This document shows positions 9,783 through 29,434 of a stretch of 32,000 nucleotides of DNA, in pieces. A model generated the notes under the pieces. It worked only from the letters and a program-made list of their open reading frames with translations. It did not search any database and had not been told where the DNA came from. Source of the stretch: Candidatus Nitrospira inopinata (lineage in GTDB: Bacteria; Nitrospirota; Nitrospiria; Nitrospirales; Nitrospiraceae); assembly GCF_001458695.1 (NCBI RefSeq), contig NZ_LN885086.1, forward strand, positions 2,880,001 to 2,912,000, in the 5' to 3' direction. The stretch's first letter is position 1, and each line of letters opens with the position of its first letter. The position numbers were made by a program, and so were the translations under genes.

Positions 9783-12700
9783 CTACGGTTCATCCGATTG
9801 GGCTACATCATATGCGGGCACATCCCCCTGTGGCTCCACTGCTGGAGCGCATCGGCTTCGCCACAAGGCATAGAGTACCGGAATCACCAGCAACGTCAAC
9901 ACCGTCGAACTCACCATGCCGCCGATCATCGGCGCGGCAATCCGCTTCATCACATCGGCCCCGGTGCCGGTAGTCCACATGATCGGAAGTAATCCGCCCA
10001 TGATCGCCGCCACCGTCATCATCTTAGGCCGCACTCGTTGAACCGCTCCCTCCATAATAGCGTCACGGAGATCCTGCGCCGTGGCCATGCGACCTTCGCG
10101 CACACGCCGCTCATACGCTTCATCGAGATAGACGAGCATGACCACGCCCGTCTCCGCCGCCACGCCGGCCAGCGCAATGATGCCCACCCAGACCGCCACG
10201 TTGAGGTTGTAGCCCAGGTAATGGAGGTACCAGATGGCTCCGATCACGGCGAAGGGGACGGACAGGAGCACGATCAGGGATTTCGTGAGCGATCGGAAAT
10301 TGAGATACAGGAGCAACAGAATCACGGCCAGTGTTACGGGAACCACCAGCTTCAACCGCTCTTCCGCCCGAACCAGATGTTCGTATTGACCGGTCCAAAT
10401 CAGCCAGTACCCAGAGGGAAGGGAGACCAGGTCACGGACTGCTCGTTGGGCGTCTTGAACATAGCCGCGCAAATCACGGCCGCTGACCGATACCGACACC
10501 AGGCCGGCGAGCGATCCTGCCTCATCCGCGATCGACGGGGGTCCTTGTGTGATCACCATTTCCGCGATTTGGCCGAGAGGGATCTGCGCGCCAGTCGGCG
10601 TGGGAATCAGCACCCGTTTGAGCCGGTCCGGATCGTCGCGCAACTCACGTTTGTAACGAACATTGACCGGATACCGTTCTCGCCCCTCAACCGTGGTCGT
10701 CACGGTTTCTCCTCCGATGGCCGAAGTGATCACCGTTTGCACATCGCCCACCGTCAGGCCATAGCGAGCCGCCTCACGTCGGTTCACGATCACATCCAAG
10801 TAGTAGCCCTCATTGAGCCGTTCGGCGAAGGCGCTCTTGGTGCCGGGCACGGTTGCCAAGGCCTGTTCGATCTCGATGCCGATTCGCTCGATCGTCTTTA
10901 AATCCGGTCCCAGCACCTTGATGCCGACCGGACTTCGGACACCCGTCGTGATCATCTCCGTGCGGGTCTGGATCGGCATCCACCAGATGTTCGGAAATCC
11001 AGGGATGCGCAGTTTGGCATCCATCTCATCAAGCAACCGGTCCCAGGTCATGCCTGGCCGCCACTGCGATTCCGGCTTGAGCGTGACCGTGATCTCGGCC
11101 ATTCCGACGAAGGCTGGATCGGTCGCGGTCGGGGCCTTCCCCATCTTGCCGAACACCCGTTCCACTTCCGGGAAGGTGGTGAGCAACTGATCCTGGACCT
11201 GCAAGACCTTCGTCGCTTCAGGTATCGAAAGGCCTGGGACCGTCGTCGGCATGTAGAGGATGGTGCCCTCGTTCAGCGGCGGCATGAATTCTGCCCCGAG
11301 TCGCGTGAACACCGGCACCGTGATGGCCACCGCCGCTACCGCCAGCCCCAGCGTCAACCACCTGACTCGCAACGCCCCTGAGAGGATGGGCCGATACAAC
11401 GCGATCAGCAACCGGTTCAAGGGATTCTTGGTTTCCGCTCGGATGTGGCCTCGAATCAGGACCACCATGAGTACGGGCGCCAATGTTACCGAGAGCGCGG
11501 TGGCAAAGAGCATCGAAAAGGTCTTGGTATAGGCCAACGGCGTGAACAGTCGCCCTTCCTGGGATTCCAGCGCAAAGATCGGCAGGAAAGACACAGCAAT
11601 CACAAGAAGTGAGAAGAATAGGGGCCGCCCAACTTCTTTCGCAGCAGCGATGATGATTTCCGTTCGGTTGCCTGAGGGAGATTGTTCCAACCGTTTATGG
11701 GCATTCTCGACCATCACAATCGCGGCATCGACCATGGCTCCAATGGCAATGGCGATCCCGCCGAGCGACATGATGTTGGACGTAATCTTCAAGTAGGCCA
11801 TTGGAATAAAAGCGAGCAGCACCGCCACTGGGAGAATGAGGATGGCCACAAGGGCGCTTCGAACATGAAACAGAAAGATCACCGCGATCAGGCTGACGAT
11901 CACACTTTCTTCAAGCAGTTTTTCGCGGAGGACGGCAATCGCGCGATAAATGAGATCAGACCGATCGTAGGTGGGAACTATGCGCACTCCTCCAGGCAAA
12001 GCCGGGGCGATTTCTTGCAGCCTTGCTTTGATCCGCTCGATCACGGCGAGCGCGTTCTCTCCGGCCCGCATGATCACAATCCCGCCGACCGTCTGGCCCT
12101 TGCCGTCCAACTCGGCGATGCCCCGACGCTGATCCGGCCCGAGTTGGACATGCCCGATGTCTCGCACCAGGATCGGCGTGCCCCGTCCATCCGTGCCGAC
12201 CGGAATCAGCTCGATTTCACCAGCCGACTGCAGATAGCCTCGTCCTCGAATGACGTACTCGGTGCCGGCCATCTCCAAAACGCGGCCGCTCACTTCCGCG
12301 TTGCTGTTGCGGACGGCTTCGATGACCCTCTGAATCGGCAGCCGATACGCCGCTAAGGTGTTGGGGTCCACTTCGATTTGGTATTGTTTGACGAATCCAC
12401 CAATCGATGAGACCTCCGCTACGCCTGGCACACTCTCCAATTGGTAACGCAGATACCAATCCTGAAGGCTCCGGAGCTGCGCCAGATCGTGCGTCCCGGA
12501 CTCGTCCACCAACGCATACTGATAGACCCACCCAACACCGGTTGCGTCCGGTCCCAAGGTCGGCGTGACACCGATCGGCAACTTGCCGGTGAGCTTCTGG
12601 AGATATTCGAGGACACGACTTCTTGCCCAGTAGAGATCGGTTCGGTCTTCGAAGATCACATAGACGTAGGAGACTCCGTATTCCGACACCCCTCGGACTC

Positions 12701-12941
12701 GTTTGACTCTGGGTCCCGCGAGCAGAGAGCTCACGACCGGGTAGGTGATCTGATCTTCAATGAGGGTCGGGCTCCGCCCCTGCCATTCGGTATAGACAAT
12801 GACCTGAACATCAGATAGATCCGGGATCGCATCCAACGGCACCTGAAACACCGCCCATAGGCCCCCGCCTGCCAGCAGTAATGTACAGAGGATGACGAGG
12901 ACCGGATTCCGTGCACTCCCTTCAATAAGTCGCGTGATCAT
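9783..12941 (-). CDS. cusA: HME-RND inner-membrane efflux pump, CusA-like (Cu/Ag)
   Basis: 1052 aa. It has the TM4 motif AIAIGAMVDAAIVMVEN typical of CusA. The periplasmic cleft segments carry the methionines used by CusA (AEFMPPLNEGTILYMPTT, FVGMAEITVTLKP, RTEMITTGVRSPVGIKV). Confidence 0.93.
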   Translation of the reverse strand: MITRLIEGSARNPVLVILCTLLLAGGGLWAVFQVPLDAIPDLSDVQVIVYTEWQGRSPTLIEDQITYPVVSSLLAGPRVKRVRGVSEYGVSYVYVIFEDRTDLYWARSRVLEYLQKLTGKLPIGVTPTLGPDATGVGWVYQYALVDESGTHDLAQLRSLQDWYLRYQLESVPGVAEVSSIGGFVKQYQIEVDPNTLAAYRLPIQRVIEAVRNSNAEVSGRVLEMAGTEYVIRGRGYLQSAGEIELIPVGTDGRGTPILVRDIGHVQLGPDQRRGIAELDGKGQTVGGIVIMRAGENALAVIERIKARLQEIAPALPGGVRIVPTYDRSDLIYRAIAVLREKLLEESVIVSLIAVIFLFHVRSALVAILILPVAVLLAFIPMAYLKITSNIMSLGGIAIAIGAMVDAAIVMVENAHKRLEQSPSGNRTEIIIAAAKEVGRPLFFSLLVIAVSFLPIFALESQEGRLFTPLAYTKTFSMLFATALSVTLAPVLMVVLIRGHIRAETKNPLNRLLIALYRPILSGALRVRWLTLGLAVAAVAITVPVFTRLGAEFMPPLNEGTILYMPTTVPGLSIPEATKVLQVQDQLLTTFPEVERVFGKMGKAPTATDPAFVGMAEITVTLKPESQWRPGMTWDRLLDEMDAKLRIPGFPNIWWMPIQTRTEMITTGVRSPVGIKVLGPDLKTIERIGIEIEQALATVPGTKSAFAERLNEGYYLDVIVNRREAARYGLTVGDVQTVITSAIGGETVTTTVEGRERYPVNVRYKRELRDDPDRLKRVLIPTPTGAQIPLGQIAEMVITQGPPSIADEAGSLAGLVSVSVSGRDLRGYVQDAQRAVRDLVSLPSGYWLIWTGQYEHLVRAEERLKLVVPVTLAVILLLLYLNFRSLTKSLIVLLSVPFAVIGAIWYLHYLGYNLNVAVWVGIIALAGVAAETGVVMLVYLDEAYERRVREGRMATAQDLRDAIMEGAVQRVRPKMMTVAAIMGGLLPIMWTTGTGADVMKRIAAPMIGGMVSSTVLTLLVIPVLYALWRSRCAPAVEPQGDVPAYDVAQSDEP

Positions 12942-12991
12942 TGTTTTTCACCCTCCCACCCCGCGGGTTCCGAGACGCCTGCTTCCCCCAA

Positions 12992-14908
12992 CTACATGCC
13001 TCCCCCTGCGACCAGGAAGTGAAACTTTTCAATAACCGGTGGTTGGCCAGGGATGGTCACGGTAACGGTCACGACCCACGTACCGCCCATACCGAACATC
13101 ACCTTGCCTTCATAGAGCCCGTCCTTAGTATGGAGCGCCGTCACCTTGGAATCGGTCATGCCTGGCATCGGCATCGTATAGACGAACAGGACTTGCGCAT
13201 TGGTCACTGGCTTGCCGCTCGGATTCGTCACCCTGAGCCTGAGGAGCACCTCACCGGCCTTGGGTGTTTTAGGCAGAGTCGTGAAGGTCAGGGTGTGTCC
13301 GGCTACCTTACGGGTTTCGGAGATGGCTTTGGTTGAACCCGTCTCCATACCCGGCATGCCGCTCATATCCTTCATGCCTGGCATTTCTTCCATGCCTTTC
13401 ATGCCCTCCATGCCCTTCATTCCTTCCATCCCATGCATGCCTTTCATTCCCTCCATTCCTCTCATACCGGACATACCCTCCATTCCTTGCATCCCCTGCA
13501 TGCCGGACATGCCGTGCATACCTTTCATGCTGTCCATCTCACCCGCCCGCCCTGGCGGCGCCGAGACGCCGCCTTCTCCCATGGCCATCTTGGCCTCATA
13601 GGCGCCGCGCATTTGCCAATCGCCCATGCCGATCCGGCCCATCATGCCCTGCATGCTCGAAGCCGATGCCAATTTACTTTCCGCGTCCAACAAGAAATTG
13701 GCCGAGGTAACGATTCGATCCCCTTCCTTGAGTCCTTCCATCACTTCCACTGCATCCTGACTCCGGCGCCCCAGCTTGACTGAAGCAGGCTCATACCGAC
13801 CTTGCCCCCGATCCATGAACACGAGTTGGCGAAGCCCGGTGTTCAGCACGGCTTCCTTGGGCACGACCAAGGTCCTGATCGCATCGGTCTGCAAAGTCAC
13901 GTTCCCGTACATGCCCGGCTTCAGCTTCAGTTCAGGATTCGGAAATTCAACCCGGACTCGCACCGTGCGGGCTTCGGTATTCAACGTCGGATAGATATAA
14001 GTCACCTTTCCACTGAACATTTCTCCCGGATAGGCGGCGAAGGTGACCGAAGCTGGTTGAGCGACTTTTACGGCAGCCACTTCTGATTCGTAAATATCGG
14101 CAGAGATCCAGGCTGTGGACAAATCCGCGATCTCGTACAGTGTCGTGCCCGGCTCCACATATTTCCCCGGCAAAGCCTCACGTTTCATCACGATCCCGGA
14201 GGAAGGAGCGTAGACTGTGAGCACCGGATCGGCGTGGCCGCGACGCTCAAGCGCCGCGATTTGTGCATCGGTCACATCCCAGAGTCGCAAGCGCTCCCGC
14301 GCACTCGCCACGAGCGCGTCAGCGCCAGCTTTTGCTTCGTCGAGTGGGCTTTCGGCCAGTTGCGCCCGTGTTTTTATGGCGAGGAGATACTCGTCTTGCG
14401 TGACCAAGAGATCCGGCGAGTAGACCGTGAAGAGCGGTTCACCTTTCCGTACCGGTCGACCGATCGAATCGACGAAGACCTTTCGAACCCACCCGGAGGT
14501 TTTCAGCGTCACTTGCGTGAAACCCCGTTCGTCGTAGCCGACCGTGCCGACCGTACGGATCTCTTCCTGCAGCGTTGCGTGGGCTGTCGGGGCACTGCGG
14601 ACGCCGATCAACTGTCTTGCCACAGCTGGAACAGTCACGGCTCCGGACGGAGCGTCCGACATATCTGGCGCTGGTTCGATGTCGCTCATGGATTTCGCGC
14701 CTTCCATTGGCATTCCCTTCATGTCGCCCACGCCCGCCATGCCTTTCATACCTTCCATCCCACGACCCTTCATCTCTCCACTGCTTTGCATCCCCGACAT
14801 ATCGCTCATCATCCGATGCGCGGCGAAGAATCCGGCGGTGATTCCGACGAACAAACTGACGACCGCGACACCGACAACAAGTCTCTTTCTACGCATGTCG
14901 TGATTCAT
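12992..14908 (-). CDS. cusB: CusB-like periplasmic adaptor with Met-rich tracts and an extra C-terminal beta-rich domain
   Basis: HlyD/CusB core spans roughly aa 100-425. The N-terminal Met-rich segment reads MSDMSGMQSSGEMKGRGMEGMKGMAGVGDMKGMPMEG. There is a long (GMx)n tract and a C-terminal domain of about 105 aa (TLTFTTLPKTPKAGEVLLRLRVTNPSGKPV...GTWVVTVTVTIPG) resembling YtkA/FixH-type Ig-like domains. The start is placed at ATG 14908, 7 nt after GGAGGA. ATGs at 14914 and 14938 are alternatives. Confidence 0.88.
   Translation of the reverse strand: MNHDMRRKRLVVGVAVVSLFVGITAGFFAAHRMMSDMSGMQSSGEMKGRGMEGMKGMAGVGDMKGMPMEGAKSMSDIEPAPDMSDAPSGAVTVPAVARQLIGVRSAPTAHATLQEEIRTVGTVGYDERGFTQVTLKTSGWVRKVFVDSIGRPVRKGEPLFTVYSPDLLVTQDEYLLAIKTRAQLAESPLDEAKAGADALVASARERLRLWDVTDAQIAALERRGHADPVLTVYAPSSGIVMKREALPGKYVEPGTTLYEIADLSTAWISADIYESEVAAVKVAQPASVTFAAYPGEMFSGKVTYIYPTLNTEARTVRVRVEFPNPELKLKPGMYGNVTLQTDAIRTLVVPKEAVLNTGLRQLVFMDRGQGRYEPASVKLGRRSQDAVEVMEGLKEGDRIVTSANFLLDAESKLASASSMQGMMGRIGMGDWQMRGAYEAKMAMGEGGVSAPPGRAGEMDSMKGMHGMSGMQGMQGMEGMSGMRGMEGMKGMHGMEGMKGMEGMKGMEEMPGMKDMSGMPGMETGSTKAISETRKVAGHTLTFTTLPKTPKAGEVLLRLRVTNPSGKPVTNAQVLFVYTMPMPGMTDSKVTALHTKDGLYEGKVMFGMGGTWVVTVTVTIPGQPPVIEKFHFLVAGGGM
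13346..13537 (-). repeat. Coding tandem 9-nt (3-codon) periodic repeat encoding (G-M-x)n within cusB
   Basis: Translates to MDSMKGMHGMSGMQGMQGMEGMSGMRGMEGMKGMHGMEGMKGMEGMKGMEEMPGMKDMSGMPGM. That is 22 Met in 64 residues, almost perfectly every third residue. The DNA shows reiterated catgcc/cattcc units. Confidence 0.9.
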
Positions 14909-14924
14909 GGCCATTCCTCCGTTT

Positions 14925-16214
14925 TTAGCTGTTTCCATTCAGGTCGGTTCCGATCACCTGTTCGAGTTCCGCGAGTCGGTGCTCCCGCTCGACCAGCGCT
15001 CGGTAGTACTCATGCTGATATCCTCGCCAAGCCCGCTGCGTATCAATAAGATCCAGAAACCCTCCCTTTCCCACACGATATCCCGCCCGTGCTGCTTCAA
15101 GGTTCTGTACGGCCTGGGGCAGGATCGTGGTGTGATACAACCTCGCCACCTGTTCGCTCGCCCGGACCCTGGCCAAGAGGTCGTTGACTTGAAAACGCGT
15201 CAGGTTTTCCAGCTGGTGCCGTTGTGCGCGCGCAGCTGCAACGGACGCTGTGGCTTCTTGGACGCCTGCGTCATACTTCGGCTTCGTCCAGAATGCGAAG
15301 GGAATGGTCATCGCCACATAGGCGCCAAATCCATCGTTGGCTTGAAAATTCTGGAAACGCTGAAACGCCACGTTGAAGTCCGGGTAGTACTGACGCTGGG
15401 CGAGCGCGCGGGACTGTTCGCCGTGTTGGACCGCCAGTTCGGCGGCTTTCAACTCCGGTCTGGCATTCAGTGCAAGACGGTGCAGGTCGTCGATGGTGGT
15501 ATCGATCGGCGTCGGAGAGGGCTCTTGAGGAATGCCCAAGGGCGATAGGGGGTCCCTGTCCAGGAGCGTGTTCAGTTGCGCTGCGGCCGTCTCGCGACGC
15601 TGTTCCAGGACGGGCAGTTGCTGGTGCAATACAGACAGCTCGACCTGAGCCTTGAGCACATCAGCCTGCGATCCCTTTCCAGTCCGAAACTTCGCGTTTG
15701 CAATCTCGACGAACTGCCTGAGCAATTCGACCTGTTCATGATGAATCTGGATCGCCTTGTGCGCGAGAAACAGGTCGTAGTAGGCCTGCTTGAGGCGGGC
15801 AACCAGCTCCCTTTCTTTCCCATGCAACACCTGTTCGGTCATCTCGGCCGACCGACTCGCTATTTCACCCTTCAGAGCCAGTTTGCCGGGGAACGGGAAA
15901 TTCTGTGAAAGACCGAAGATGCTGTTGTCCGCCCGCGTGACATTGAAGGTCTGCGGGAAATTCCACAAGTGGACTGACAGGGTGGGGTCGTCTAGCGACC
16001 GAGCCTGGGTAATTCGATTCGTGGCCGCCTCCCATTGCTTGCGCGCCGCCACAAGTTCTGGATTTCTGGCCAAGGCTTCCGGGATCAGATCCGGTAACGC
16101 CAATGACAGCTGCGCCGTCTGATCGGCAGCATGGGCGACATGGCGTTCGCCTGTCGCCAAGGCCATGCCTAAAACTGTTATGACCGACAACAAAAATCGA
16201 ATTGGATGAGTCAT
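14925..16214 (-). CDS. cusC: Outer-membrane efflux factor, CusC/TolC family
   Basis: OEP-family protein with signal peptide MTHPIRFLLSVITVLGMALATG. The start is placed at ATG 16214, 7 nt after GGGGAGGA. It is the first gene of the C-B-A operon. Confidence 0.88.
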   Translation of the reverse strand: MTHPIRFLLSVITVLGMALATGERHVAHAADQTAQLSLALPDLIPEALARNPELVAARKQWEAATNRITQARSLDDPTLSVHLWNFPQTFNVTRADNSIFGLSQNFPFPGKLALKGEIASRSAEMTEQVLHGKERELVARLKQAYYDLFLAHKAIQIHHEQVELLRQFVEIANAKFRTGKGSQADVLKAQVELSVLHQQLPVLEQRRETAAAQLNTLLDRDPLSPLGIPQEPSPTPIDTTIDDLHRLALNARPELKAAELAVQHGEQSRALAQRQYYPDFNVAFQRFQNFQANDGFGAYVAMTIPFAFWTKPKYDAGVQEATASVAAARAQRHQLENLTRFQVNDLLARVRASEQVARLYHTTILPQAVQNLEAARAGYRVGKGGFLDLIDTQRAWRGYQHEYYRALVEREHRLAELEQVIGTDLNGNS

Positions 16215-16362
16215 GGGATGGTCCTCCCCAAGAGCTTTCTTGTCCACGCCTGTCGCGGATCTCGGACCCCGGCTTGCTACACAAGAAGCAGCGGGATGAA
16301 CTGAGGTTCAGCGCCGGGCAGATACCGCGATGATGAAACGGTAGAAGGAAGAACCGGGGAGA

Positions 16363-16740
16363 TCAGATACGAAGCACGGTGCTTGGGAGAGACTCATGCG
16401 GAGGAGAACTCGATTCGAGAGAGTGATATGGGTTGGAAATTCGTGCGAGCCGGCAACTCACGGCTGGAAGCGCAACCGGTGCCTGGTCTGCCGCCGACCA
16501 ATGATGGTCCATGTGCAACGAAGTCGACTGTGGGGAGGACTCAATGCCCAGCGTTTTGAAGGCATCACATAACTGCCGAACCGGCTGCTCCTCGGGAGTT
16601 GAACAGCCGTTTGCCATTGACGCATCGGTGGTCCCCGCCAGCGGTAGGAGACAGGCGTAGGCATTGAAACTGAACGCCAGTAGGAACACCACAATGGTTA
16701 TGGCGACAAAAGATCGGGAATGATGGGAACCTAATCGCAT
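16363..16740 (-). CDS. Hypothetical small exported Cys-containing protein immediately upstream of cusC (125 aa)
   Basis: MRLGSHHSRSFVAITIVVFLLAFSFNAYACLLPLAG...GCSTPEEQPVRQLCDAF...HMDHHW. It has an N-terminal signal/anchor. It occupies the position held by small CzcI-type proteins in some czc operons. No domain was recognised. Confidence 0.45.
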   Translation of the reverse strand: MRLGSHHSRSFVAITIVVFLLAFSFNAYACLLPLAGTTDASMANGCSTPEEQPVRQLCDAFKTLGIESSPQSTSLHMDHHWSAADQAPVALPAVSCRLARISNPYHSLESSSPPHESLPSTVLRI

Positions 16741-16807
16741 GCTGTCAGTCTATCCCTCATCCCTGTTACCCGTCAACGGTACTTCTCATACATGAGCCTT
16801 CGATCGG

Positions 16808-16842
16808 CAAATGCAAACAAATCCACCATCCTTCTGGGTGGA
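16808..16842 (-). terminator. Possible intrinsic terminator after the CMD-family gene
   Basis: Minus-strand read: TCCACC-cagaaggat-GGTGGA followed by TTTGTTTGCATTT. It begins about 30 nt after the stop at 16875. The stem is short (6 bp) and the T-tract is interrupted. Confidence 0.35.
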
Positions 16843-16874
16843 AGGGGAGAAATCTACTTCATCGGCATGCCGGC

Positions 16875-17279
16875 TCATGAGGCTCCTTCCTCATCAGTCT
16901 GGTTCCTATCGTCATTCTTACAACAAGCGGATGTCTCTGAGCCTCTCTGACCATCTACACAGTCTTTATACGCCGCGTAGGCCTTGAGAGCCCATTCCTC
17001 ACCAGGACAACCTTGCATCGTCATCGCGACTTCGAGGAATTCAACCAATTCTTCCTGGGTGATGCCCTGCCGGTAGGCCATCCGCACGTAGGCTTGAATG
17101 CAAGGTTCGCAACGAATCGCGATGGAAATCGTCATGGCAGTGAGCAGTTTGTACTTGGTGGCCACGGCTCCATCCCGATACGTCTGTTGCCGCATGCGCA
17201 ACAGCCCTCCGGTAACCACAGGACTCAGCTTCCGCAGTTCGGCAAACAGACCGTTCGCAGTATTCGTCTCCTGAATCAT
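16875..17279 (-). CDS. Carboxymuconolactone decarboxylase (CMD)/AhpD-fold family protein, Cys-rich (134 aa)
   Basis: The core KYKLLTAMTISIAIRCEPCIQAYVRMAYRQGITQEELVEFLEVA matches the CMD/AhpD helix-CxxC-helix pattern. Further Cys occur at QGCPG, KDCVDG and C-terminal SACC. The start is placed at ATG 17279, 7 nt after GAAGGAGG. Confidence 0.75.
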   Translation of the reverse strand: MIQETNTANGLFAELRKLSPVVTGGLLRMRQQTYRDGAVATKYKLLTAMTISIAIRCEPCIQAYVRMAYRQGITQEELVEFLEVAMTMQGCPGEEWALKAYAAYKDCVDGQRGSETSACCKNDDRNQTDEEGAS

Positions 17280-17326
17280 TACCACGCCTCCTTCAAGTTC
17301 GTAGCCTGACAATGGAAGACCGCTAT

Positions 17327-17680
17327 CTATTTATCCCTCAACTGAGCCCTGTATTTCGACAACGGGTTGCCAGCCGCCTCGACGGCCCTCATCAACGTGT
17401 CCACGTTTGTCTTCTGTGGATCAAACGTCACTGACGCGTGGGCATCAGAATAATCGGGGAACACGATCCACTTTTTTCCCGTGCTGAGTCCTACCTCGCT
17501 GACGCCAGGCACTTTGGCTAGGGCGGCTTTGACATCCTTGACGCACCCCCCGCAGGTCATCCCGTCAATCTGCAAAGTGACTGTCTGCTGGCTTTGGCCT
17601 CCAGCCACAAGTCCCTGGAAACCAGCCAGGCTCACGGTCACAACACCGATCACGATCATCGTGTGAACGAGTCTCCACAT
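17327..17680 (-). CDS. merP: Periplasmic heavy-metal-associated (HMA) protein, MerP-like
   Basis: Signal/anchor MWRLVHTMIVIGVVTVSLAG, then an HMA fold with GMTCGGC. It lies directly downstream of merT. The start is placed at ATG 17680, 9 nt after AGGAGG. Confidence 0.8.
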   Translation of the reverse strand: MWRLVHTMIVIGVVTVSLAGFQGLVAGGQSQQTVTLQIDGMTCGGCVKDVKAALAKVPGVSEVGLSTGKKWIVFPDYSDAHASVTFDPQKTNVDTLMRAVEAAGNPLSKYRAQLRDK

Positions 17681-17779
17681 AGTCGGTTTCCTCCTATCCA
17701 TCGCCTCGCTTCCCCAGTAGGGAAAAGGACCGAACAAAAAGTGACGCCCAATAGCCCGCATCTCTCGCTTTCCGGAAAA

Positions 17780-18193
17780 TCATAGGCCCAACCAATACGG
17801 CGCTAGAACCAACACCAGTGCCAATGAGGCCATGATCCAAAGCCATGTCCTATTCCCACCGTTCGGATACCCTTGAGCGCACACTTCCCCTGGCGCACAT
17901 AACGCTGAGTTCGGCTTCCTATAAGCAAGATAAAAGCCGATGCCCAACAGAAGTATCGTCAGGCCGATGAAGGCCGATCGATACGGCAAGAGTCCCTTCA
18001 AGACTCCAGCCGTATCGGCTAAGAAACCCGTAGCCCCGACTCCCACACCAAGCGCCGCGAAGACCAGCGGTCCAATACAGCACACAGAAGCCAGCGACGC
18101 TGCGCTCAATCCACCAATCGAGAGTATCGTCACGGAGCCGCTTGGCGGTTTGGACCCGGAAGCGCGTTCCTGATTCGGACGCATGACCATCAT
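17780..18193 (-). CDS. merT: Mercuric ion transport protein MerT-like
   Basis: It has a vicinal Cys pair in the first TM helix (ASVCCIGPLVFAALG) and a second Cys pair in the loop (LCAPGEVCA). Both match the MerT pattern CC...C.PGEVC. It has three hydrophobic helices. The first ATG overlaps the merR stop (ATGA). ATGs at 18190 and 18184 are alternative starts. Confidence 0.8.
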   Translation of the reverse strand: MMVMRPNQERASGSKPPSGSVTILSIGGLSAASLASVCCIGPLVFAALGVGVGATGFLADTAGVLKGLLPYRSAFIGLTILLLGIGFYLAYRKPNSALCAPGEVCAQGYPNGGNRTWLWIMASLALVLVLAPYWLGL

Positions 18194-18627
18194 CTCCTTG
18201 TTTTGCGCCCTACCTGCCCTCCTATTTCCTTATCCAGTCTATTAAGAATCGGGCAGCGATCGGTCGGCTCTCCAGCTCGGCACGTGCGGATCAAGCTTTT
18301 GAGCGCCCGCGAGAGCGCCAGTAGATCCCGTGTCTTCGCCTCCACCTGTCTGAGCTTTGCCTGTGCCTTTACCTGAATGGTCCCACACCGTGCGACTGAG
18401 CTGACCCGGAGATTCAGTAAGTCAGTGACCTCGCGAAGGGTAAAGCCCAACGCCTGCGCATTCTTGATGAAGCGCAGTCGCCTCAACGCCTCGTCAGAGT
18501 ACACTCGGTATCCAGACGCTTTACGGTCTGTCGGCTGGAGTAGGTTGCGGCGCTCATAGTAGCGAACGGTCTGCGCGTTCACGCTCGCCATCTTGGCAAG
18601 TTGTCCGATCGTCAGTTCCAAGGCCAT
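18190..18627 (-). CDS. merR: MerR-family metalloregulator with the Hg(II)-type three-cysteine pattern
   Basis: N-terminal HTH LTIGQLAKMASVNAQTVRYYERRNLL is followed by a coiled coil. Cys occur at ARCGT, IRTCRAG and DRCP; the last two are 9 residues apart, as in Tn501/Tn21 MerR. The start is placed at ATG 18627, 7 nt after AGAGGG and just downstream of the promoter at 18647-18678. Confidence 0.85.
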   Translation of the reverse strand: MALELTIGQLAKMASVNAQTVRYYERRNLLQPTDRKASGYRVYSDEALRRLRFIKNAQALGFTLREVTDLLNLRVSSVARCGTIQVKAQAKLRQVEAKTRDLLALSRALKSLIRTCRAGEPTDRCPILNRLDKEIGGQVGRKTRR

Positions 18628-18646
18628 AGCGTAACCCTCTTGTCGA

Positions 18647-18678
18647 ATGGTAAACCCTCTACCATGGTACCGAGTCAA
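18647..18678 (-). promoter_or_regulatory. MerR-type promoter/operator with an over-long spacer containing a palindrome
   Basis: Minus-strand read: TTGACT-CGGTACCATGGTAGAGGGTT-TACCAT. The -35 is at 18673-18678 and the -10 at 18647-18652, giving a 19-20 nt spacer depending on -10 register. The perfect 10-bp palindrome TACCATGGTA (18660-18669) sits inside the spacer. The merR ATG is about 20 nt downstream. Confidence 0.6.
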
Positions 18679-18991: not shown

Positions 18992-19465
18992 TCACAGCGG
19001 CCAGCCTTGATCCGCAAAACTATAGAGACGGTCGTCACCGAGAATGAGATGGTCGAGTAGCCTGATCCCCAGTAAGTCTCCAGCTTCCCGCAGTCGTGTG
19101 GTGAGCGTCCGATCCTCGACGCTCGGCGTGGGATCGCCGGAAGGGTGGTTGTGCACGGCAATGATCGCGCAGGCATTCAAGAGGATCGCCGGTTTGAAGA
19201 CTTCACGCGGATGCACAATGCTGAGAGTGAGCGAGCCGATCGAGACGATATTCACGCCGATGCTGACATTCTTGGCATCGAGACAACAGACGAGGAACTG
19301 CTCGCGATCGAGACCTACAAAGCATGGACGTAGCGCTGCGGCCGCCGCAGCAGAATCGCGAAGAAGACCGCAGGGAGCGGTGTGACCACCCTCAGGTACG
19401 AGCGTGACCCGGTAGCGTGGAATGAACTGTGGAACGGAAAGTCGGTTGACGGATTGTCTGGCCAT
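18992..19465 (-). CDS. radC: RadC-like JAB/MPN-domain protein (short form, 157 aa)
   Basis: It carries the JAMM motif AIIAVHNHPSGDPTPSVEDRTLTTRL and the conserved C-terminal LLDHLILG. The start is placed at ATG 19465, 8 nt after AGGAGG. It lacks the N-terminal HhH region of long RadC proteins. Confidence 0.8.
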   Translation of the reverse strand: MARQSVNRLSVPQFIPRYRVTLVPEGGHTAPCGLLRDSAAAAAALRPCFVGLDREQFLVCCLDAKNVSIGVNIVSIGSLTLSIVHPREVFKPAILLNACAIIAVHNHPSGDPTPSVEDRTLTTRLREAGDLLGIRLLDHLILGDDRLYSFADQGWPL

Positions 19466-20175
19466 GGTGGCACCTCCTGCATGTTGAACGAACTGGCGCT
19501 TTCGCAGAGACCGAAGCGCCAGGGCAGGACAACGGAGGTGACAGGGGGAGGACTGCCGAAGAAGCACGGGCGAATGAGCAATCAGCGGCGGCCGTGACAG
19601 ATCTGCGCTGGCGCGGGCGCTGCGTCAGACGATCAGTGCGCGGCAGGACATCGGCCTTCCATGGCCGAACAAGTCCGTTCGATCGACGATGACCGATGAC
19701 CGCGCCTGTTCCAGAGCGATGGGACATGGACGGAGTGCCGCAACTGGCAGAGCGGAAGAGGATCAGAAAGAGAAGCTACATCGATGTGGAACCGAGCATG
19801 AATCGAGTGATGGAGACCTTTGCAGGGATTGATCCCAAGCACGAGAAGCGCTGAGCGGCTCACAGCAACCTCACATGCCGATGCGCGTCGCATCGTTCCC
19901 TTCAGGCAACAAGGGCGCTGCTTCATTCAGCTTCAGAAAGAAGTGCGAGCTGACCGTTCGATGGCGGAGACCGTTCTCTGCCGTAACGGCACAGGCATGC
20001 CCCTTCATTCTCGCCGACACAATCCAATCATGTGATCGCCGCAGCTACGTAGTTCCCACAGGCTTGCACTAAAAACTGAACCTCACTACATGTCACCCCC
20101 GTTTGGCGATGAGTGCGCGCACACAAGGCGCTGCAAACTCGCCACAGAGGCCACTTCACAGAAAGGAAGGGGAAG

Positions 20176-20535
20176 ATGGAAGAGGTGATGTCGAGGGTAG
20201 ATGTGACACAGGAGAGGACGTCAGGTACAGGGGCCTTGAGAGGGGCCAGCCGAGGGAATGGACGTCTGATGGCGGCCGCCTCTTGGCTGCTCGGGGTGGT
20301 CATCCTGTTGGAATCGGACCCGGCCTGGGCCCAGATCACCAAGGTGAACACCGTGATGCAGAACGTGCAAACGGTCCTGACGAGTGTGGCGGTGACGCTC
20401 TTTACCGTCGCCATCATGTGGGCGGGGTTCAAGATGGCCTTCAGCCATGCCCAATGGTCCGACGTGAGTAACGTCGTGATCGGCGGCATCTTGGTGGGCG
20501 GCGCCGCGGGCATCGCGGCCTGGTTGATCAACTAA
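20176..20535 (+). CDS. virB2: T4SS pilin, VirB2/TrbC family
   Basis: It has a long leader ending in AWA-Q, followed by two hydrophobic helices (VAVTLFTVAIMWAGF, VVIGGILVGGAAGIAAWLI). It is the first gene of the operon. ATG 20176 follows GAAAGGAAGGGGAAG. Confidence 0.75.
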   Translation: MEEVMSRVDVTQERTSGTGALRGASRGNGRLMAAASWLLGVVILLESDPAWAQITKVNTVMQNVQTVLTSVAVTLFTVAIMWAGFKMAFSHAQWSDVSNVVIGGILVGGAAGIAAWLIN

Positions 20536-20536
20536 C

Positions 20537-20869
20537 ATGGACGGCTTTCGCGATCCCATCTTCACCGGTTGCACGAGGCCCGCGATGTTGGGCGGCGTGC
20601 CGCTCGTGCCGCTGATTCTGATCGGTGGCCTGACTCTGTTGATGTCGGTCTGGCTGTACTACCTCGTGAGCGGCTACGTCTCCCTGGGACTCGTGCTGAT
20701 CACGATTCCCATTGTGCTCTGGATGCGCCAGACGACGAAAATGGACGATCAGCGCTTGCGCCAAATGATGATGCGGGCGCGGATGCGACTTCGGCACGGA
20801 CCGAGCCGCGCGACGTGGGGCGCCATTTCCTATGGCCCCCTGTCATGGAAGACCAGACGTTCATCGTGA
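20537..20869 (+). CDS. virB3: T4SS protein VirB3
   Basis: It has the N-terminal motif DPIFTGCTRPAMLGGVP followed by TM helices. It is about 110 aa and sits immediately upstream of virB4. Confidence 0.8.
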   Translation: MDGFRDPIFTGCTRPAMLGGVPLVPLILIGGLTLLMSVWLYYLVSGYVSLGLVLITIPIVLWMRQTTKMDDQRLRQMMMRARMRLRHGPSRATWGAISYGPLSWKTRRSS

Positions 20870-20886
20870 AAGAGCTGAGGTGCTGA

Positions 20887-23382: not shown

Positions 23383-23391
23383 AGCAACCCC

Positions 23392-24435
23392 ATGGGCATG
23401 GCGACCTACATCGAACAGTCGGTGAACAACGCGTTGGACCACTATGTCGTGACCTCCAGCGATGCCGTGATCGGAGTGCTCACGCCGGTCGCCGTAGGCG
23501 CCATGACGCTCTATGTGATGTGGACCGGGTTTCAAGTCATGCGTGGCGATGTGCAGGAACCAGTCACCGCGCTCGTCTGGCGATGGTTTCGCGTGGCGCT
23601 CATCACCGGGCTGACGTTGAACGGGCCGCAGTATCGGAGTCTCGTAAAGGACGGATTGGACGGGATTCAAGAGGCCTTTGCCTCCGCCTTCGGCGGAGTC
23701 CTCTCGATGGGAGGGACCATCGACCAGATGGCGGACCCCTTCACGACGCTCATGGAAACCCTGTTCACCGAAGCGAGTTCTGGATTGGTCCCGCAATTCT
23801 CACTTTTCATCGCGGGAGCAATCTGCGCCACGGCGTCGATCGTGATGGCCTTCGTCGCGATGGGACTCTTTCTCGTCGCGAAGGTGAGCCTCGCCCTGCT
23901 GCTCGCAGTCGGGCCGGCCTTCATCTTCTGTGCGATGTTTCCCGTGACACAGCGCTATGCGGAGAACTGGCTATCCAGCGCGCTGGTCGCCGTCTTCACC
24001 AATGTCCTCATCATGGCGGTCATCACGTTTCTCGCCAGCCTTCTACGAAATGCCTGTCTGCATGTGCTAAGTGCCTACTCCGCATCTTCGATCCTGGCAG
24101 ATGTCGTCGGCCTGCTGTTTCTCTCCATCACCGCCGCCTATATCTTGCTCCATGTTGCGTCCCTGGGAGCGAGTTTGGCCGGAGGCCTCTCGCTGGGGAA
24201 CCCCGGTGGGGATGCCACCAGGAGTGGGATGATGCTTTTGCATAGCGTCACGTCCGGTCTGAGTCGGTTAGTCCCGTTGGCCCTGTCCTCCACCGGCGGG
24301 TCTTTGAGTGGACCGCGAACCGGGGCGGCCCGCCTGCTGAGCGCGCTGCCTGCCGGGAATCCCCAGCCAGGGAGTGACCTCTATCAACGGGCCTCAATGG
24401 AGCGGTTACGCAATAGCGTCTCGCGAAAGGAGTAA
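23392..24435 (+). CDS. virB6: T4SS inner-membrane protein VirB6/TrbL family
   Basis: 347 aa polytopic membrane protein. It has the VirB6-like N-terminal periplasmic segment and 5-6 TM helices (LTPVAVGAMTLYVMWTGFQVMRG...). Confidence 0.8.
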   Translation: MGMATYIEQSVNNALDHYVVTSSDAVIGVLTPVAVGAMTLYVMWTGFQVMRGDVQEPVTALVWRWFRVALITGLTLNGPQYRSLVKDGLDGIQEAFASAFGGVLSMGGTIDQMADPFTTLMETLFTEASSGLVPQFSLFIAGAICATASIVMAFVAMGLFLVAKVSLALLLAVGPAFIFCAMFPVTQRYAENWLSSALVAVFTNVLIMAVITFLASLLRNACLHVLSAYSASSILADVVGLLFLSITAAYILLHVASLGASLAGGLSLGNPGGDATRSGMMLLHSVTSGLSRLVPLALSSTGGSLSGPRTGAARLLSALPAGNPQPGSDLYQRASMERLRNSVSRKE

Positions 24436-24438
24436 GAC

Positions 24439-25164
24439 ATGTCCCGCGTGAAACAAACAGTGATCGCGATTGGCTTGGTCCTGATGGTCGTCGTTGGTCC
24501 AGAGTCGAAATCCCAAGCCGGAGGGATTCCCGTCATCGACACGGCCAATCTCGTGCAATCCATCGTGCAAGCTCTCGCCTGGATCCAACAGTTCCAACAG
24601 ATGCAGCAACAGATCTTCCAAGCCGACCAGCAAATTCACGCGATCATCGGCTCGCGCAATATGGGCAGTCTCATGAACAACCTCACCCTCGCCGGTGTCG
24701 TCCCCTCCGACGTCAACGCCGTGTACCACGCCATTCGGTCCGGCGGGGTGCAGGGCTTGACTGCGGCGGCCCAGATCATCCGTCACAACCGCATGATCTA
24801 CAACTGTGAGGGCAAAACCGGTGATGCACTGCGCATCTGCCAGAACATGCTGAACCAAACGCCGCAAAGTCAGGCCTACTACGCGAACACCTATCAGATG
24901 TTGCTCGGACGGATGCAACAAATCCGGGCCTTGACGACCCGCATTAATCAGACCGAGGACGAAAAAGGGATTCTGGAACTCAATGGCCGGATCGCCGCCG
25001 AGCAAGCGCAGGTGAGCAACGACACGAATCGGATTCTGACGATGAAATCGATGATCGAGGCGGAAGAAAAAGCGGCACAACAGGAACAGCAGGAACGCGT
25101 CCTGAAGATGTTGGCCCCTGGCACGTCCCGGACCTTCGACCACATAACTCCCTGGACGCCCTAG
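24439..25164 (+). CDS. VirB5/TrbJ-like minor pilus/periplasmic component
   Basis: Signal peptide, then GGIPVIDTANLVQSIVQALAWIQQFQQMQQQI. This is the characteristic TrbJ/VirB5 N-terminal motif followed by a Q-rich helical bundle. 241 aa. Confidence 0.65.
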   Translation: MSRVKQTVIAIGLVLMVVVGPESKSQAGGIPVIDTANLVQSIVQALAWIQQFQQMQQQIFQADQQIHAIIGSRNMGSLMNNLTLAGVVPSDVNAVYHAIRSGGVQGLTAAAQIIRHNRMIYNCEGKTGDALRICQNMLNQTPQSQAYYANTYQMLLGRMQQIRALTTRINQTEDEKGILELNGRIAAEQAQVSNDTNRILTMKSMIEAEEKAAQQEQQERVLKMLAPGTSRTFDHITPWTP

Positions 25165-25228
25165 TCCTGCCCACAGGCAGGAGGCTGAAGGCGAGAGGCG
25201 TAAGGCAAGTGGCAAAAGGATAGAAACG

Positions 25229-25987: not shown

Positions 25988-26002
25988 GGAGGGCACAGGA
26001 TC

Positions 26003-26929: not shown

Positions 26930-26938
26930 GAAACGAAA

Positions 26939-29426: not shown

Positions 29427-29434
29427 AGGAACCG

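What the first reader, a model, noticed from the sequence alone, without database searches (positions are those of the whole stretch)
16875..18678. A mer module (merR-merT-merP) with no merA, where a Cys-rich CMD/AhpD-fold protein takes the reductase slot
**Seen in sequence**
- MerR has the three Hg-ligand cysteines at Tn501-like spacing.
- MerT has both Cys pairs (SVCCIGPL and LCAPGEVCA).
- MerP has GMTCGGC.
- No flavoprotein reductase ORF exists anywhere in the 32 kb.
- The next gene, 47 nt downstream with a strong SD, encodes a 134-aa CMD/AhpD-fold protein with a CEPC redox motif. The residue four positions after the second Cys is Tyr, where the AhpD core CxxCxxxH normally has His.
- That protein has four further Cys, including a C-terminal vicinal pair (SACC).

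**Established knowledge**
- MerT/MerP import Hg(II).
- Expressing them without MerA makes cells hypersensitive.
- MerA and MerT both use vicinal Cys pairs for Hg(II) hand-off.

**Inference**
- The CMD protein could be a cytoplasmic Hg(II) acceptor or thiol-redox partner replacing or feeding a distant reductase.
- Alternatively, the module may be repurposed, for example as uptake/sensing of another thiophilic metal linked to the downstream cus operon.
- I do not know of a described mer operon of this composition.
Basis: partly seen in the sequence, partly recalled or inferred. Interest (0 to 1): 0.72.

Follow-up and report, generated by a model that had tools for sequence, protein, structure and literature searches.

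The report
Mercury operon with conserved Cys-rich partner
This is a mercury-sensing and mercury-uptake gene set that has lost its reductase but keeps a small cysteine-rich protein, and that protein sits beside mercury transport, reduction or demethylation genes in many bacterial phyla, so it is probably an unrecognised part of mercury handling.

Summary
On the minus strand lie merR, merT, merP and a 134-aa CMD/AhpD-fold gene, and no merA or merB exists in the 32 kb.

The reading "CMD takes the reductase slot" is not supported. In related Nitrospira loci the same CMD gene lies between merP and a bona fide merA. The fullest form is merR-merT-merP-CMD-merA-orf183-hyp125-cusCBA. The window is a derivative shortened by deletion, and a relic of the orf183 3' end remains at 16788-16853.

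The CMD protein belongs to a distinct subfamily whose invariant residues are CEPC, Tyr in place of the AhpD His, GC(P/V)GE-W, and a C-terminal Cys-Cys. This subfamily sits next to MerT or MerTP, with or without MerA or MerB, under MerR, ArsR or CsoR regulators in at least eight lineages.

Three proteobacterial replicons show the same merA-less merR/merT-merP-CMD set. One is C. metallidurans pMOL30, whose locus was published as "merRTΔP, function ?".

The likeliest role is a cytosolic Hg(II) acceptor or buffer for MerT, which is an inference with no experimental support. I found no paper describing the family as a mer component.

The parts
18647..18678 (-). MerR-type promoter/operator: -35 TTGACT (18678-18673), a 20-nt spacer holding the dyad GGTACCATGGTA, and -10 TACCAT (18652-18647)
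   Evidence: The sequence was read. The same element (TTGACTCNGTACNNTGGTACAGGGTG-TAnnnT) lies upstream of merR in nearly all related loci, with or without merA. The window has one copy, against 0 expected by chance. The resemblance to Tn501 merO (GTAC-N4-GTAC between long-spaced hexamers) is from my memory of that sequence, not a tool result.
18190..18627 (-). merR, a MerR-family metal sensor that is co-directional with and the first gene of the operon
   Evidence: Pfam MerR_1, MerR and MerR-DNA-bind. The best NCBIfam model is MerR TIGR02051, at 125.8 bits against a cut-off of 150.85. C81, C116 and C125 align with the three Cys of an annotated Hg(II) MerR at 46% identity. The best plasmid hits are annotated Hg(II)-responsive MerRs. 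dN/dS is 0.07-0.15.
17780..18193 (-). merT, the inner-membrane Hg(II) transporter
   Evidence: PF02411 at 59.7 bits. It is 41% identical to an annotated MerT, and the CC pair and the C-x6-C pair both align. Its ATG overlaps the merR stop codon.
17327..17680 (-). merP, a periplasmic HMA-domain Hg(II) binding protein (117 aa; an alternative upstream ATG lies at 17701)
   Evidence: HMA domain PF00403. The best NCBIfam model is MerP TIGR02052, below its cut-off. It carries the GMTCGGC motif, a hydrophobic leader, and an AGGAGG Shine-Dalgarno sequence before the ATG at 17680. Orthologues are called at 117 aa.
16875..17279 (-). CMD/AhpD-fold protein of the mer-associated CEPC...Y...GCPGE-W...CC subfamily (134 aa, cytoplasmic)
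   Evidence: PF02627 at 53.8 bits. Across phyla the invariant residues are C57, E58, P59, C60, Y64, G90, C91, E94, W96, C119 and C120. The AF2 model is all-alpha, with a low-confidence tail from residue 113 that carries the CC pair. The closest solved structure is lpg0406, 5dik. dN/dS is 0.09-0.20.
16788..16853 (-). Non-coding relic of the last 22 codons of orf183, a gene that lies after CMD or merA in relatives; it marks a deletion
   Evidence: tblastn with orf183 residues 158-179 of 179 gives 54.5% identity and E = 0.002. The intergenic DNA aligns with the region upstream of hyp125 in L024, L071 and L055.
16747..16776 (-). Promoter-like site (TTGACG-18-TAGACT) upstream of hyp125, possibly a separate start for hyp125-cusCBA
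   Evidence: It is a consensus scan hit only. It lies in the stretch conserved upstream of hyp125 in relatives. This evidence is weak.
16363..16740 (-). hyp125, a small Cys-containing protein with a hydrophobic N-terminal leader that always precedes cusCBA in Nitrospira
   Evidence: It has no Pfam or NCBIfam match. It is syntenic in about 35 of the 80 related loci. dN/dS is 0.19-0.29, but 0.68 against the nearly identical L007, where dS is only 0.054.
9783..16247 (-). cusC-cusB-cusA-like heavy-metal RND efflux genes. This is adjacent context and probably a separate functional unit.
   Evidence: OEP, HlyD_D23 plus YtkA, and ACR_tran/CusA-CzcA TIGR00914.

Best explanation
The window, most likely from a conjugative element of Candidatus Nitrospira inopinata, carries an Hg(II)-responsive operon, merR-merT-merP-cmd. 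It is transcribed from a MerR-type long-spacer promoter upstream of merR.

It is a merA-less derivative of a Nitrospira-type mer operon. In that operon the CMD-fold gene is a regular component placed between merP and merA.

The CMD protein belongs to a distinct cross-phylum subfamily that travels with MerT or MerTP, and in some lineages also with MerA or MerB.

**Proposed mechanism (inferred, not shown)**
- MerP and MerT bring Hg(II) across the inner membrane.
- The cytosolic CMD protein takes Hg(II) from MerT's cytoplasmic Cys pair with the vicinal Cys-Cys on its flexible C-terminal tail.
- It then holds the metal at the CEPC/C91 site.
- Where MerA is present, it passes Hg(II) on to the reductase.
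- Where MerA is absent, as here, it acts as an inducible thiol sink. This would prevent the hypersensitivity that uptake without a reductase otherwise causes.
For: **What is shown by tool results**
1. Identity of the four genes and absence of merA in the window.
2. A conserved merO-like promoter/operator upstream of merR, both in the window and in relatives with and without merA.
3. Gene context in the 80 best Nitrospiraceae loci.
   - 73 have a MerR-family gene within about 2.6 kb upstream of CMD.
   - 13 carry a MerA with the GTCVNIGCVP active site downstream of CMD. Ten of these also show the C-terminal SCCAA/SCCAT; the other three are cut off by the contig end.
   - Up to 19 carry MerA by BLAST.
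   - Cultured N. moscoviensis has merR, a MerB::MerT fusion, merP, CMD and merA in that order.
4. The subfamily is narrow. Only 13 of 1.84 billion cluster representatives score at E <= 1e-30 and 115 at E <= 1e-10. Its invariant residues are CEPC, Y64, GC91, E94, W96 and C119-C120.
5. Independent linkages outside Nitrospira.
   - Zixibacteria: CsoR-MerTP-CMD.
   - Bacteroidota: ArsR-MerTP-DUF2703-CMD.
   - KSB1: ArsR-MerTP-CMD-MerB.
   - Ignavibacteria: ArsR-MerTP-MerA-...-CMD.
   - An unclassified lineage: MerR-x-CMD-MerTP.
   - CMD-MerB pairs in 9 of 42 loci of another clade.
   - merR/merT-merP-CMD without merA in C. metallidurans pMOL30, Ralstonia solanacearum and Methylocapsa polymorpha.
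6. All four genes are under purifying selection in merA-less relatives, with dN/dS of 0.07-0.29.
7. The tail bearing the CC pair is predicted to be flexible.

**From established knowledge (my memory, not a tool result)**
- MerA and MerT use vicinal or paired cysteines for Hg(II) hand-off.
- MerA uses a flexible C-terminal Cys pair.
- E. coli engineered with MerT-MerP plus metallothionein tolerates and accumulates Hg(II).
Against: - No experiment exists on any member of the subfamily.
- No metal-binding geometry could be checked, because the AF2 model has a mean pLDDT of only 65.5 and no coordinates were available.
- The fold is that of thiol-disulfide oxidoreductases, so a redox role is equally natural.
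- Some family members are not mer-linked: L096, L097, L099 and most of the L101-L142 clade.
- CMD accompanies MerA both with and without the NmerA domain, so it is not simply a substitute for NmerA.
- MerR, MerT and MerP fall below the NCBIfam equivalog cut-offs.
- From memory, the MerR Cys spacing is also that of Pb-sensing PbrR.
- Whether N. inopinata has a distant merA elsewhere is not settled.
Confidence: 0.5

Rival explanations
1. The CMD protein is an AhpD-like thiol-disulfide oxidoreductase, not a metal carrier. It would keep the cysteine pairs of MerT, MerA or MerB reduced, or repair Hg-induced thiol and peroxide damage, drawing on a cellular reductant.
For: The fold and CxxC motif are those of AhpD-like reductases. 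The closest structures are lpg0406 and TM1620. One non-mer family member lies near AhpC/thioredoxin genes and two near cytochrome c genes. This role would explain association with MerT, MerA and MerB alike.
Against: The His of the AhpD CxxCxxxH relay is invariably Tyr. No ahpC or reductase partner is co-conserved in the mer loci. The invariant vicinal CC pair on a flexible tail is typical of Hg hand-off rather than redox catalysis. That last point is from memory of MerA, not a tool result.
Confidence: 0.25
2. The CMD protein replaces MerA functionally. It would be a flavin-independent, thiol-driven Hg(II) reductase, or some other MerA-independent detoxifying enzyme.
For: merT(P)-CMD modules with no merA nearby recur in many lineages and are under purifying selection. 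No Nitrospira-type MerA was found on the 3.295-Mb N. inopinata contig among the 120 best MerA clusters.
Against: In at least 13 Nitrospira loci, in N. moscoviensis and in one Ignavibacteria locus, CMD coexists with merA in the same operon. C. metallidurans CH34 has full mer operons elsewhere. From general chemistry, dithiols complex Hg(II) stably rather than reduce it.
Confidence: 0.07
3. The module handles a different thiophilic metal, such as Cu(I), Ag(I), Cd or Pb, and works with the downstream cusCBA pump.
For: Linkage to hyp125-cusCBA is conserved in about half of the Nitrospira loci. The MerR scores for ZntR, CueR and CadR/PbrR models are not far below its MerR score. The Ralstonia module lies beside copABCD.
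Against: The same regulator, operator and CMD gene are found with MerA and MerB in relatives. All three Hg-ligand cysteines are present. hyp125-cusCBA keeps its own conserved upstream region, and the cus link is absent outside Nitrospira.
Confidence: 0.08
4. The window's module is a decaying remnant of a mer operon left by deletion, with no current function.
For: A relic of orf183 shows that a deletion occurred after the CMD gene. Truncated mer remnants are common on plasmids.
Against: All four ORFs are intact and keep every ligand cysteine. dN/dS is 0.07-0.29 across several merA-less species. The promoter/operator is intact apart from one change in the right half-site.
Confidence: 0.05

Closest known systems
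Narrow-spectrum mer operons (Tn501/Tn21 merRTPAD; Gram-positive-type co-directional merR operons)
   Same: It has a MerR with three ligand cysteines, a merO-like long-spacer promoter, a MerT with both Cys pairs, and a MerP with GMTCxxC. Relatives carry a canonical MerA with the C-terminal CC pair.
   Different: There is no merA in the window. merR is co-directional and translationally coupled to merT. An extra CMD-fold gene is present that belongs to no described mer gene family (merC, D, E, F, G, H). MerR, MerT and MerP are divergent, scoring below NCBIfam cut-offs.
'merRTΔP' locus of Cupriavidus metallidurans CH34 plasmid pMOL30 (Rmet_5990-5992; Janssen et al. 2010, PMC2864759, Table 5)
   Same: The composition is the same: merR, merT, merP, then a 124-aa CMD protein 45% identical to the window's, with CEPC, GCVGE-W and a C-terminal CC pair. 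No merA is adjacent.
   Different: merR is divergent there, whereas it is co-directional here. The published description lists only merRTΔP, with mechanism 'HgTra' and function '?', and does not mention the CMD gene. CH34 also has complete mer transposons elsewhere.
AhpD (Mycobacterium tuberculosis alkylhydroperoxidase D) and small hexameric CMD proteins such as Legionella lpg0406 (5dik) and Thermotoga TM1620 (1p8c)
   Same: It shares the all-alpha CMD fold and a CxxC motif at the same position. lpg0406 matches at E = 6.9e-13 over residues 4-106.
   Different: The His of CxxCxxxH is an invariant Tyr. There is an extra invariant Cys in GC(P/V)GE and an added flexible tail ending in Cys-Cys. No ahpC partner is present. 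The AhpD core-domain model scores 17.4 against a cut-off of 27.8.
NmerA / MerP / CopZ HMA metallochaperones
   Same: The proposed job is the same: taking Hg(II) by thiol ligand exchange and handing it to the MerA core. This is inferred.
   Different: The fold is unrelated, all-alpha rather than beta-alpha-beta-beta-alpha-beta. CMD also co-occurs with MerA enzymes that already have NmerA.
Engineered MerT-MerP plus metallothionein Hg-bioaccumulating E. coli (recalled from the literature, not retrieved here)
   Same: The logic is the same: uptake by MerT/MerP is made tolerable by a cytosolic Cys-rich sink, without MerA.
   Different: That system is artificial. Here the pairing is natural, conserved, and uses a structured CMD-fold protein.

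Membership tests
mer operon (Hg resistance, MerR-regulated) | MerR sensor with three Hg-ligand cysteines (Tn501 C79/C114/C123 equivalents) | tested here: met
   C81, C116 and C125 align with the three Cys of an annotated Hg(II)-responsive MerR at 46% identity. TIGR02051 is the best model but falls below its cut-off, 125.8 vs 150.85.
mer operon (Hg resistance, MerR-regulated) | Operator dyad inside a promoter with an over-long (19-20 nt) spacer | tested here: met
   The element reads TTGACT, a 20-nt spacer containing GGTACCATGGTA, then TACCAT, at 18647-18678. It is conserved in nearly all related loci.
mer operon (Hg resistance, MerR-regulated) | MerT with a TM1 Cys-Cys pair and a cytoplasmic Cys pair; MerP with GMTCxxC | tested here: met
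   PF02411 at 59.7 bits, with both pairs aligned. HMA domain with GMTCGGC. Both score below the NCBIfam equivalog cut-offs.
mer operon (Hg resistance, MerR-regulated) | Mercuric reductase MerA in the operon | tested here: not met
   None is present in the 32 kb by Pfam, motif search or tblastn. MerA is present directly after the CMD gene in relatives.
mer operon (Hg resistance, MerR-regulated) | Induction by Hg(II) and an Hg resistance or volatilisation phenotype | not testable with these tools
   This requires reporter, MIC and volatilisation assays.
Pfam CMD (PF02627, carboxymuconolactone decarboxylase family fold) | Sequence match above the gathering threshold, with an all-alpha fold | tested here: met
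   53.8 bits against a cut-off of 23. The AF2 model has six helices, and the top Foldseek hits are CMD-family structures.
AhpD alkylhydroperoxidase | CxxCxxxH catalytic motif (Cys pair plus the relay His) | tested here: not met
   The motif here is CEPCIQAY. Tyr64 is invariant across the subfamily. TIGR00778 scores 17.4 against a cut-off of 27.8.
AhpD alkylhydroperoxidase | Genomic partnership with ahpC | tested here: not met
   No AhpC/Prx gene is present in the window or in the mer-linked loci.
gamma-carboxymuconolactone decarboxylase (PcaC) | Placement in a protocatechuate/beta-ketoadipate (pca) gene context | tested here: not met
   The neighbours are metal-resistance and mer genes only.
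TIGR04169 arsenosugar-biosynthesis-associated peroxidase-like protein (best NCBIfam hit) | Score above the curated cut-off | tested here: not met
   42 bits against a cut-off of 120.
Mer-associated CEPC/CC CMD subfamily (defined here) | Invariant C-E-P-C, Tyr at +4, G-C-(P/V)-G-E-x-W, and a C-terminal Cys-Cys, with adjacency to merT, merTP, merA or merB | tested here: met
   All residues are present. The gene lies directly downstream of merT-merP. The same linkage is seen in Nitrospiraceae, five further lineages and three proteobacterial replicons.

The most novel reading that the evidence does not exclude
MerT/MerP plus this CMD-fold protein forms a self-sufficient, MerA-independent mercury-handling system. 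It would be widespread across phyla, including the merRTΔP locus of pMOL30 and CMD-MerB pairs. In it the CMD protein detoxifies imported or MerB-released Hg(II) without a flavoprotein. It could do so by high-capacity sequestration in an oligomeric Cys cage, or by thiol-driven reduction coupled to a cellular disulfide reductase. This would answer how organisms that have only MerB or only MerT survive without MerA.
Probability: 0.15. Interest if true: 0.85.

Novelty: new variant of a known kind. Interest (0 to 1): 0.62.

Why it matters
Mer operons are a classic model of metal resistance, and their gene inventory is regarded as well known. These results point to a further conserved component. It is a small Cys-rich CMD-fold protein coupled to MerT, MerP, MerA and MerB in Nitrospirota, Zixibacteria, Bacteroidota, KSB1, Ignavibacteria and Alpha- and Betaproteobacteria.

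I found no paper describing it, and the CH34 genome paper's table of metal-resistance gene clusters does not list it.

If it is a cytosolic Hg(II) acceptor, three things follow.
- It would fill the poorly understood step between MerT and MerA.
- It would explain why merA-less uptake modules are maintained.
- It bears on the open question, raised in PMC8261052, of how MerB-only organisms cope with the Hg(II) they produce.

It also matters for interpreting metagenomic counts of mer genes in nitrifiers. Cultured hosts exist for testing: N. moscoviensis, C. metallidurans CH34 and R. solanacearum.

Tried and rejected
- **Canonical merA from plasmids as a reference.** The first three MerR hits I opened were truncated Tn5051-like merR-merT-merP-GDCCVxC remnants. 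I used a class-I active-site motif and the Nitrospira MerA instead.
- **MerT against plasmids.** tblastn at E <= 1e-5 found nothing. This shows divergence only.
- **Literature.**
  - None found a paper linking a CMD/AhpD-family protein to a mer operon.
  - The Monchy 2007 pMOL30 paper is not held.
  - The supplements of Janssen 2010 do not mention Rmet_5989-5992.
- **merA elsewhere in N. inopinata.**
  - This could only be tested indirectly.
  - 'inopinata' is absent from the truncated supplementary MerA tables of PMC8261052, which do list N. moscoviensis.
  - None of the 120 best MerA clusters lies on the 3,295,117-bp contig.
  - Neither result excludes a distant MerA.
- **CMD as a substitute for NmerA.** Rejected, because CMD occurs with MerA both with and without NmerA.
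- **The whole CEPC/CC family as mer-specific.** Rejected, because a Thermodesulfovibrionales-like clade (L101-L142) mostly lacks merT and merR, although 9 of its 42 loci have merB next door.
- **Not attempted.**
  - Cys geometry in the AF2 model, because coordinates are not exposed.
  - A complex prediction with MerT.
  - A phylogeny to time merA loss.


Full report
**1. What is in the window**

The finding lies on the minus strand. From 5' to 3' the elements are:
- A promoter/operator at 18647-18678.
- merR at 18190-18627.
- merT at 17780-18193. Its ATG overlaps the merR stop codon.
- merP at 17327-17680. An alternative ATG lies at 17701.
- After 47 nt and a GGAGG ribosome-binding site, a 134-aa gene at 16875-17279.

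Pfam assigns these genes as follows:

| Gene | Pfam match |
|---|---|
| merR | MerR_1, MerR and MerR-DNA-bind |
| merT | MerT, 59.7 bits |
| merP | HMA |
| 134-aa gene | CMD (PF02627), 53.8 bits against a cut-off of 23 |

For the first three proteins, NCBIfam ranks the MerR, MerT and MerP models first. All three fall below the curated equivalog cut-offs, so these are divergent family members.

Pairwise alignment with an annotated proteobacterial mer locus confirms the ligand residues.
- The three MerR cysteines C81, C116 and C125 align at 46% identity.
- Both MerT cysteine pairs align at 41% identity.

The 134-aa protein has C57-E-P-C60 and Y64 where AhpD has His.

No mercuric reductase is present in the 32 kb.
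- Pfam scans of every substantial ORF found none.
- A six-frame search for the class-I disulfide-oxidoreductase active site found none.
- tblastn with Nitrospira MerA and MerB detected only MerP's HMA motif.

The rest of the window holds:
- Two heavy-metal RND systems.
- A P-type ATPase.
- RadC.
- A full type IV secretion gene set.

The module therefore sits on a conjugative metal-resistance element. The CMD protein is 100% identical to one annotated in Candidatus Nitrospira inopinata on a 3,295,117-bp contig.

**2. The regulatory site**

Upstream of merR the sequence reads TTGACT, then a 20-nt spacer containing the palindrome GGTACCATGGTA, then TACCAT.
- The same element, with consensus TTGACTCNGTACNNTGGTACAGGGTG-TA(A/T)NGT, precedes merR in almost every related locus. 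This holds whether or not the locus has merA.
- The window has one copy, against none expected by chance.
- From my memory of Tn501 merO (TTGACTCCGTACATGAGTACGGAAGTAAGGT), this is the same design: a GTAC-N4-GTAC dyad between over-spaced hexamers.

merR is the first gene of the operon and is co-directional. That differs from the divergent arrangement of Tn21/Tn501.

**3. Relatives show where the CMD gene belongs**

A scan of species-representative genomes returned 141 relatives. The best 80 are almost all from Nitrospira or Nitrospiraceae. I annotated their neighbourhoods by BLAST with the window's proteins.
- A MerR-family gene lies within about 2.6 kb upstream of the CMD gene in 73 of the 80 loci.
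- The arrangement is either merR-merT-merP-CMD or merR-CMD.
- Thirteen loci carry a MerA with the GTCVNIGCVP active site downstream of the CMD gene, most of them directly. Ten of the 13 also show the hallmark C-terminal SCCAA/SCCAT; the other three ORFs are cut off by the contig end.
- BLAST raises the merA count to as many as 19.

The fullest layout is merR-merT-merP-CMD-merA-orf183-hyp125-cusCBA, seen in L071 and L055.

The cultured strain N. moscoviensis has merR, a MerB::MerT fusion, merP, CMD, and merA with NmerA, beside a T4SS coupling-protein gene.

The CMD gene therefore has its own slot between merP and merA. It does not occupy the reductase position.

The window belongs to a group of loci (L007-L014, L019, L031) in which CMD is followed directly by hyp125-cusCBA.
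- The last roughly 95 nt of its 134-nt CMD-hyp125 spacer are homologous to the region upstream of hyp125 in the longer layouts.
- Positions 16788-16853 still encode a recognisable relic of the final 22 residues of orf183.
- The arrangement was therefore produced by deletion.
- Whether merA was lost in that event or earlier, or was never present in this lineage, is not resolved.

The merA-less module is not decaying. dN/dS against other merA-less species is 0.07-0.29 for merR, merT, merP and the CMD gene.

**4. A distinct, cross-phylum, mer-linked subfamily**

A profile search of 1.84 billion cluster representatives found a narrow family. Only 13 representatives score at E <= 1e-30 and 115 at E <= 1e-10.

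More distant members keep the CEPC motif, the GC(P/V)GE-W motif and a C-terminal CC pair. Across lineages the invariant residues are C57, E58, P59, C60, Y64, G90, C91, E94, W96, C119 and C120. C107 is specific to Nitrospira.

Gene context outside Nitrospira:

| Lineage | Arrangement |
|---|---|
| Zixibacteria | CsoR-type regulator, MerTP fusion, CMD |
| Bacteroidota | ArsR, MerTP, DUF2703, CMD |
| KSB1 | ArsR, MerTP, CMD, MerB |
| Ignavibacteria | ArsR, MerTP, MerA, ..., CMD |
| Unclassified lineage | MerR, x, CMD, MerTP |
| Three other contexts | No mer gene |

A metagenome scan added a clade, L101-L142, without merT or merR. In that clade 9 of 42 loci have a MerB gene (PF03243, 116.6 bits) directly downstream of the CMD gene.

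A search of plasmid records found the same merA-less composition as the window in three proteobacteria.
- Ralstonia solanacearum megaplasmids carry merR divergent from merT-merP-CMD, beside copABCD.
- Methylocapsa polymorpha pRX1 carries the same set.
- Cupriavidus metallidurans CH34 pMOL30 carries it too.

The pMOL30 locus is listed in the CH34 genome paper as 'merRTΔP, Rmet_5990-5992, HgTra, function ?'. The fourth gene is not mentioned (PMC2864759).

The linkage has been kept through changes of regulator family, gene order and gene fusion. Shared ancestry of a single locus therefore cannot explain it.

**5. Structure**

- The AF2 model has a mean pLDDT of 65.5. It is a six-helix bundle followed by a low-confidence tail from residue 113 that carries the CC pair.
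- The best structural and sequence matches are small CMD-family proteins. lpg0406 (5dik) matches at E = 6.9e-13 over residues 4-106, followed by TM1620.
- lpg0406 has CPGCIGFH where this family has CEPCIQAY, and GGGP where this family has QGCPGE.
- The family therefore keeps the AhpD-type CxxC but loses the relay His. It gains a third Cys and a flexible vicinal Cys pair.

**6. Mechanism**

*Shown by tool results*
- The gene identities.
- The shared operator.
- The conserved linkage.
- Purifying selection.
- The conserved cysteines.

*Inferred*
- The protein is a cytosolic partner of MerT.
- It takes Hg(II) by thiol ligand exchange, probably first on the mobile CC tail, and holds it at the CEPC/C91 site.
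- It passes the metal to MerA where MerA exists.
- It serves as an inducible sink where MerA does not, as in this window.
- Its pairing with MerB suggests that it may also clear Hg(II) from MerB's active site.

*Analogies from my memory, not retrieved here*
- The C-terminal Cys pair of MerA.
- NmerA.
- Engineered MerT-MerP/metallothionein cells.

*Main rival*
- The main rival is an AhpD-like redox role, keeping Mer cysteines reduced. The fold favours this reading.
- The invariant His-to-Tyr change and the CC tail speak against it.

*Other readings I consider unlikely*
- A true substitute for MerA.
- A role with another metal and the cus pump.
- A dead remnant.
- The reasons are given with each rival explanation.

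**7. Does the host have merA elsewhere?**

This could be tested only indirectly.
- Among the 120 best clusters matching a Nitrospira MerA (at least 72% identity), N. moscoviensis appears twice. No cluster lies on the 3,295,117-bp contig.
- 'inopinata' is absent from the truncated MerA tables of PMC8261052, which do list N. moscoviensis.
- A distant MerA is not excluded.

**8. Novelty and verdict**

- The CMD protein is not in the reductase slot, and the locus arose by deletion.
- The proposal of a conserved merTP-CMD partnership and a cytosolic acceptor role is well supported by comparative genomics.
- None of ten full-text searches found a description of this family as a mer component.
- The library covers only open-access papers and preprints.

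I rate this a new variant of a known kind: a mer system with an unrecognised accessory protein family. Interest is 0.62, because function rests on context alone but is directly testable in cultured hosts.

Noticed in passing
window 18992-31498: The mer/cus island abuts RadC (18992-19567, minus strand) and a complete type IV secretion set: VirB2, B3, B4, B6, a T4SS-family protein (PF07996), B8, B9, B10, B11 and a VirD4 coupling protein (20113-31498, plus strand). The module therefore rides on a conjugative element. The N. moscoviensis mer-CMD locus also lies next to a T4SS coupling-protein gene (L181 1123-2604).
   Followed up: partly
window 16363-16740 (minus strand): hyp125 is a 125-aa protein with a hydrophobic N-terminal leader and several Cys and His residues. 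It has no Pfam or NCBIfam match and always precedes cusCBA in Nitrospira. It may be an unrecognised periplasmic component of this RND system.
   Followed up: partly
L024 8402-8938 (also L071, L055 and about 30 other loci); relic at window 16788-16853: orf183 is a roughly 179-aa protein with a hydrophobic N-terminal leader and no significant Pfam match. It is conserved between CMD or merA and hyp125 in many Nitrospira loci. Only its last 22 codons survive as a relic in the window.
   Followed up: partly
window 12992-14938 (minus strand): The CusB-like adaptor is unusually long at 648 aa. It carries a collagen-like Gly-rich repeat (about residues 430-550) and a C-terminal YtkA-like domain.
   Followed up: no
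L181 3682-5034 (N. moscoviensis chromosome): A single 450-aa gene product combines a MerB (alkylmercury lyase) domain and a MerT domain. This would couple organomercury cleavage physically to the transporter.
   Followed up: no
L048 8391-10127; L056, L085, L081, L043: A roughly 580-aa TPR-repeat protein is inserted between the CMD gene and merA in several Nitrospira mer operons.
   Followed up: partly
L075 8459-9085 and L072 (N. defluvii-type loci): An ECF-type sigma factor with a Cys-rich C-terminus (CGVCSTHGCLNCTCE) follows the CMD gene directly, ahead of a P-type ATPase and cusCBA. It may be a metal-sensing sigma factor with a built-in anti-sigma-like domain.
   Followed up: no
L087-L089 (Salmonella, Klebsiella and Pseudomonas plasmids): Common Tn3-family transposons carry a truncated merR/merT-merP followed by a gene annotated 'GDCCVxC domain-containing (seleno)protein', with no merA annotated. 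This is another recurrent merA-less mer remnant.
   Followed up: no
P0142 (1161 aa) and P0165 (852 aa): Two proteins contain six tandem matches to the CMD profile. Such giant multi-CMD repeat proteins are unusual for a family of about 120-aa single-domain proteins.
   Followed up: no
window 9218-9793 (minus strand) and 564-2477 (minus strand): A 191-aa ORF after cusA has no family match, yet it is conserved in L007 and L031. The 637-aa P-type ATPase shows no N-terminal HMA domain in the Pfam scan.
   Followed up: no
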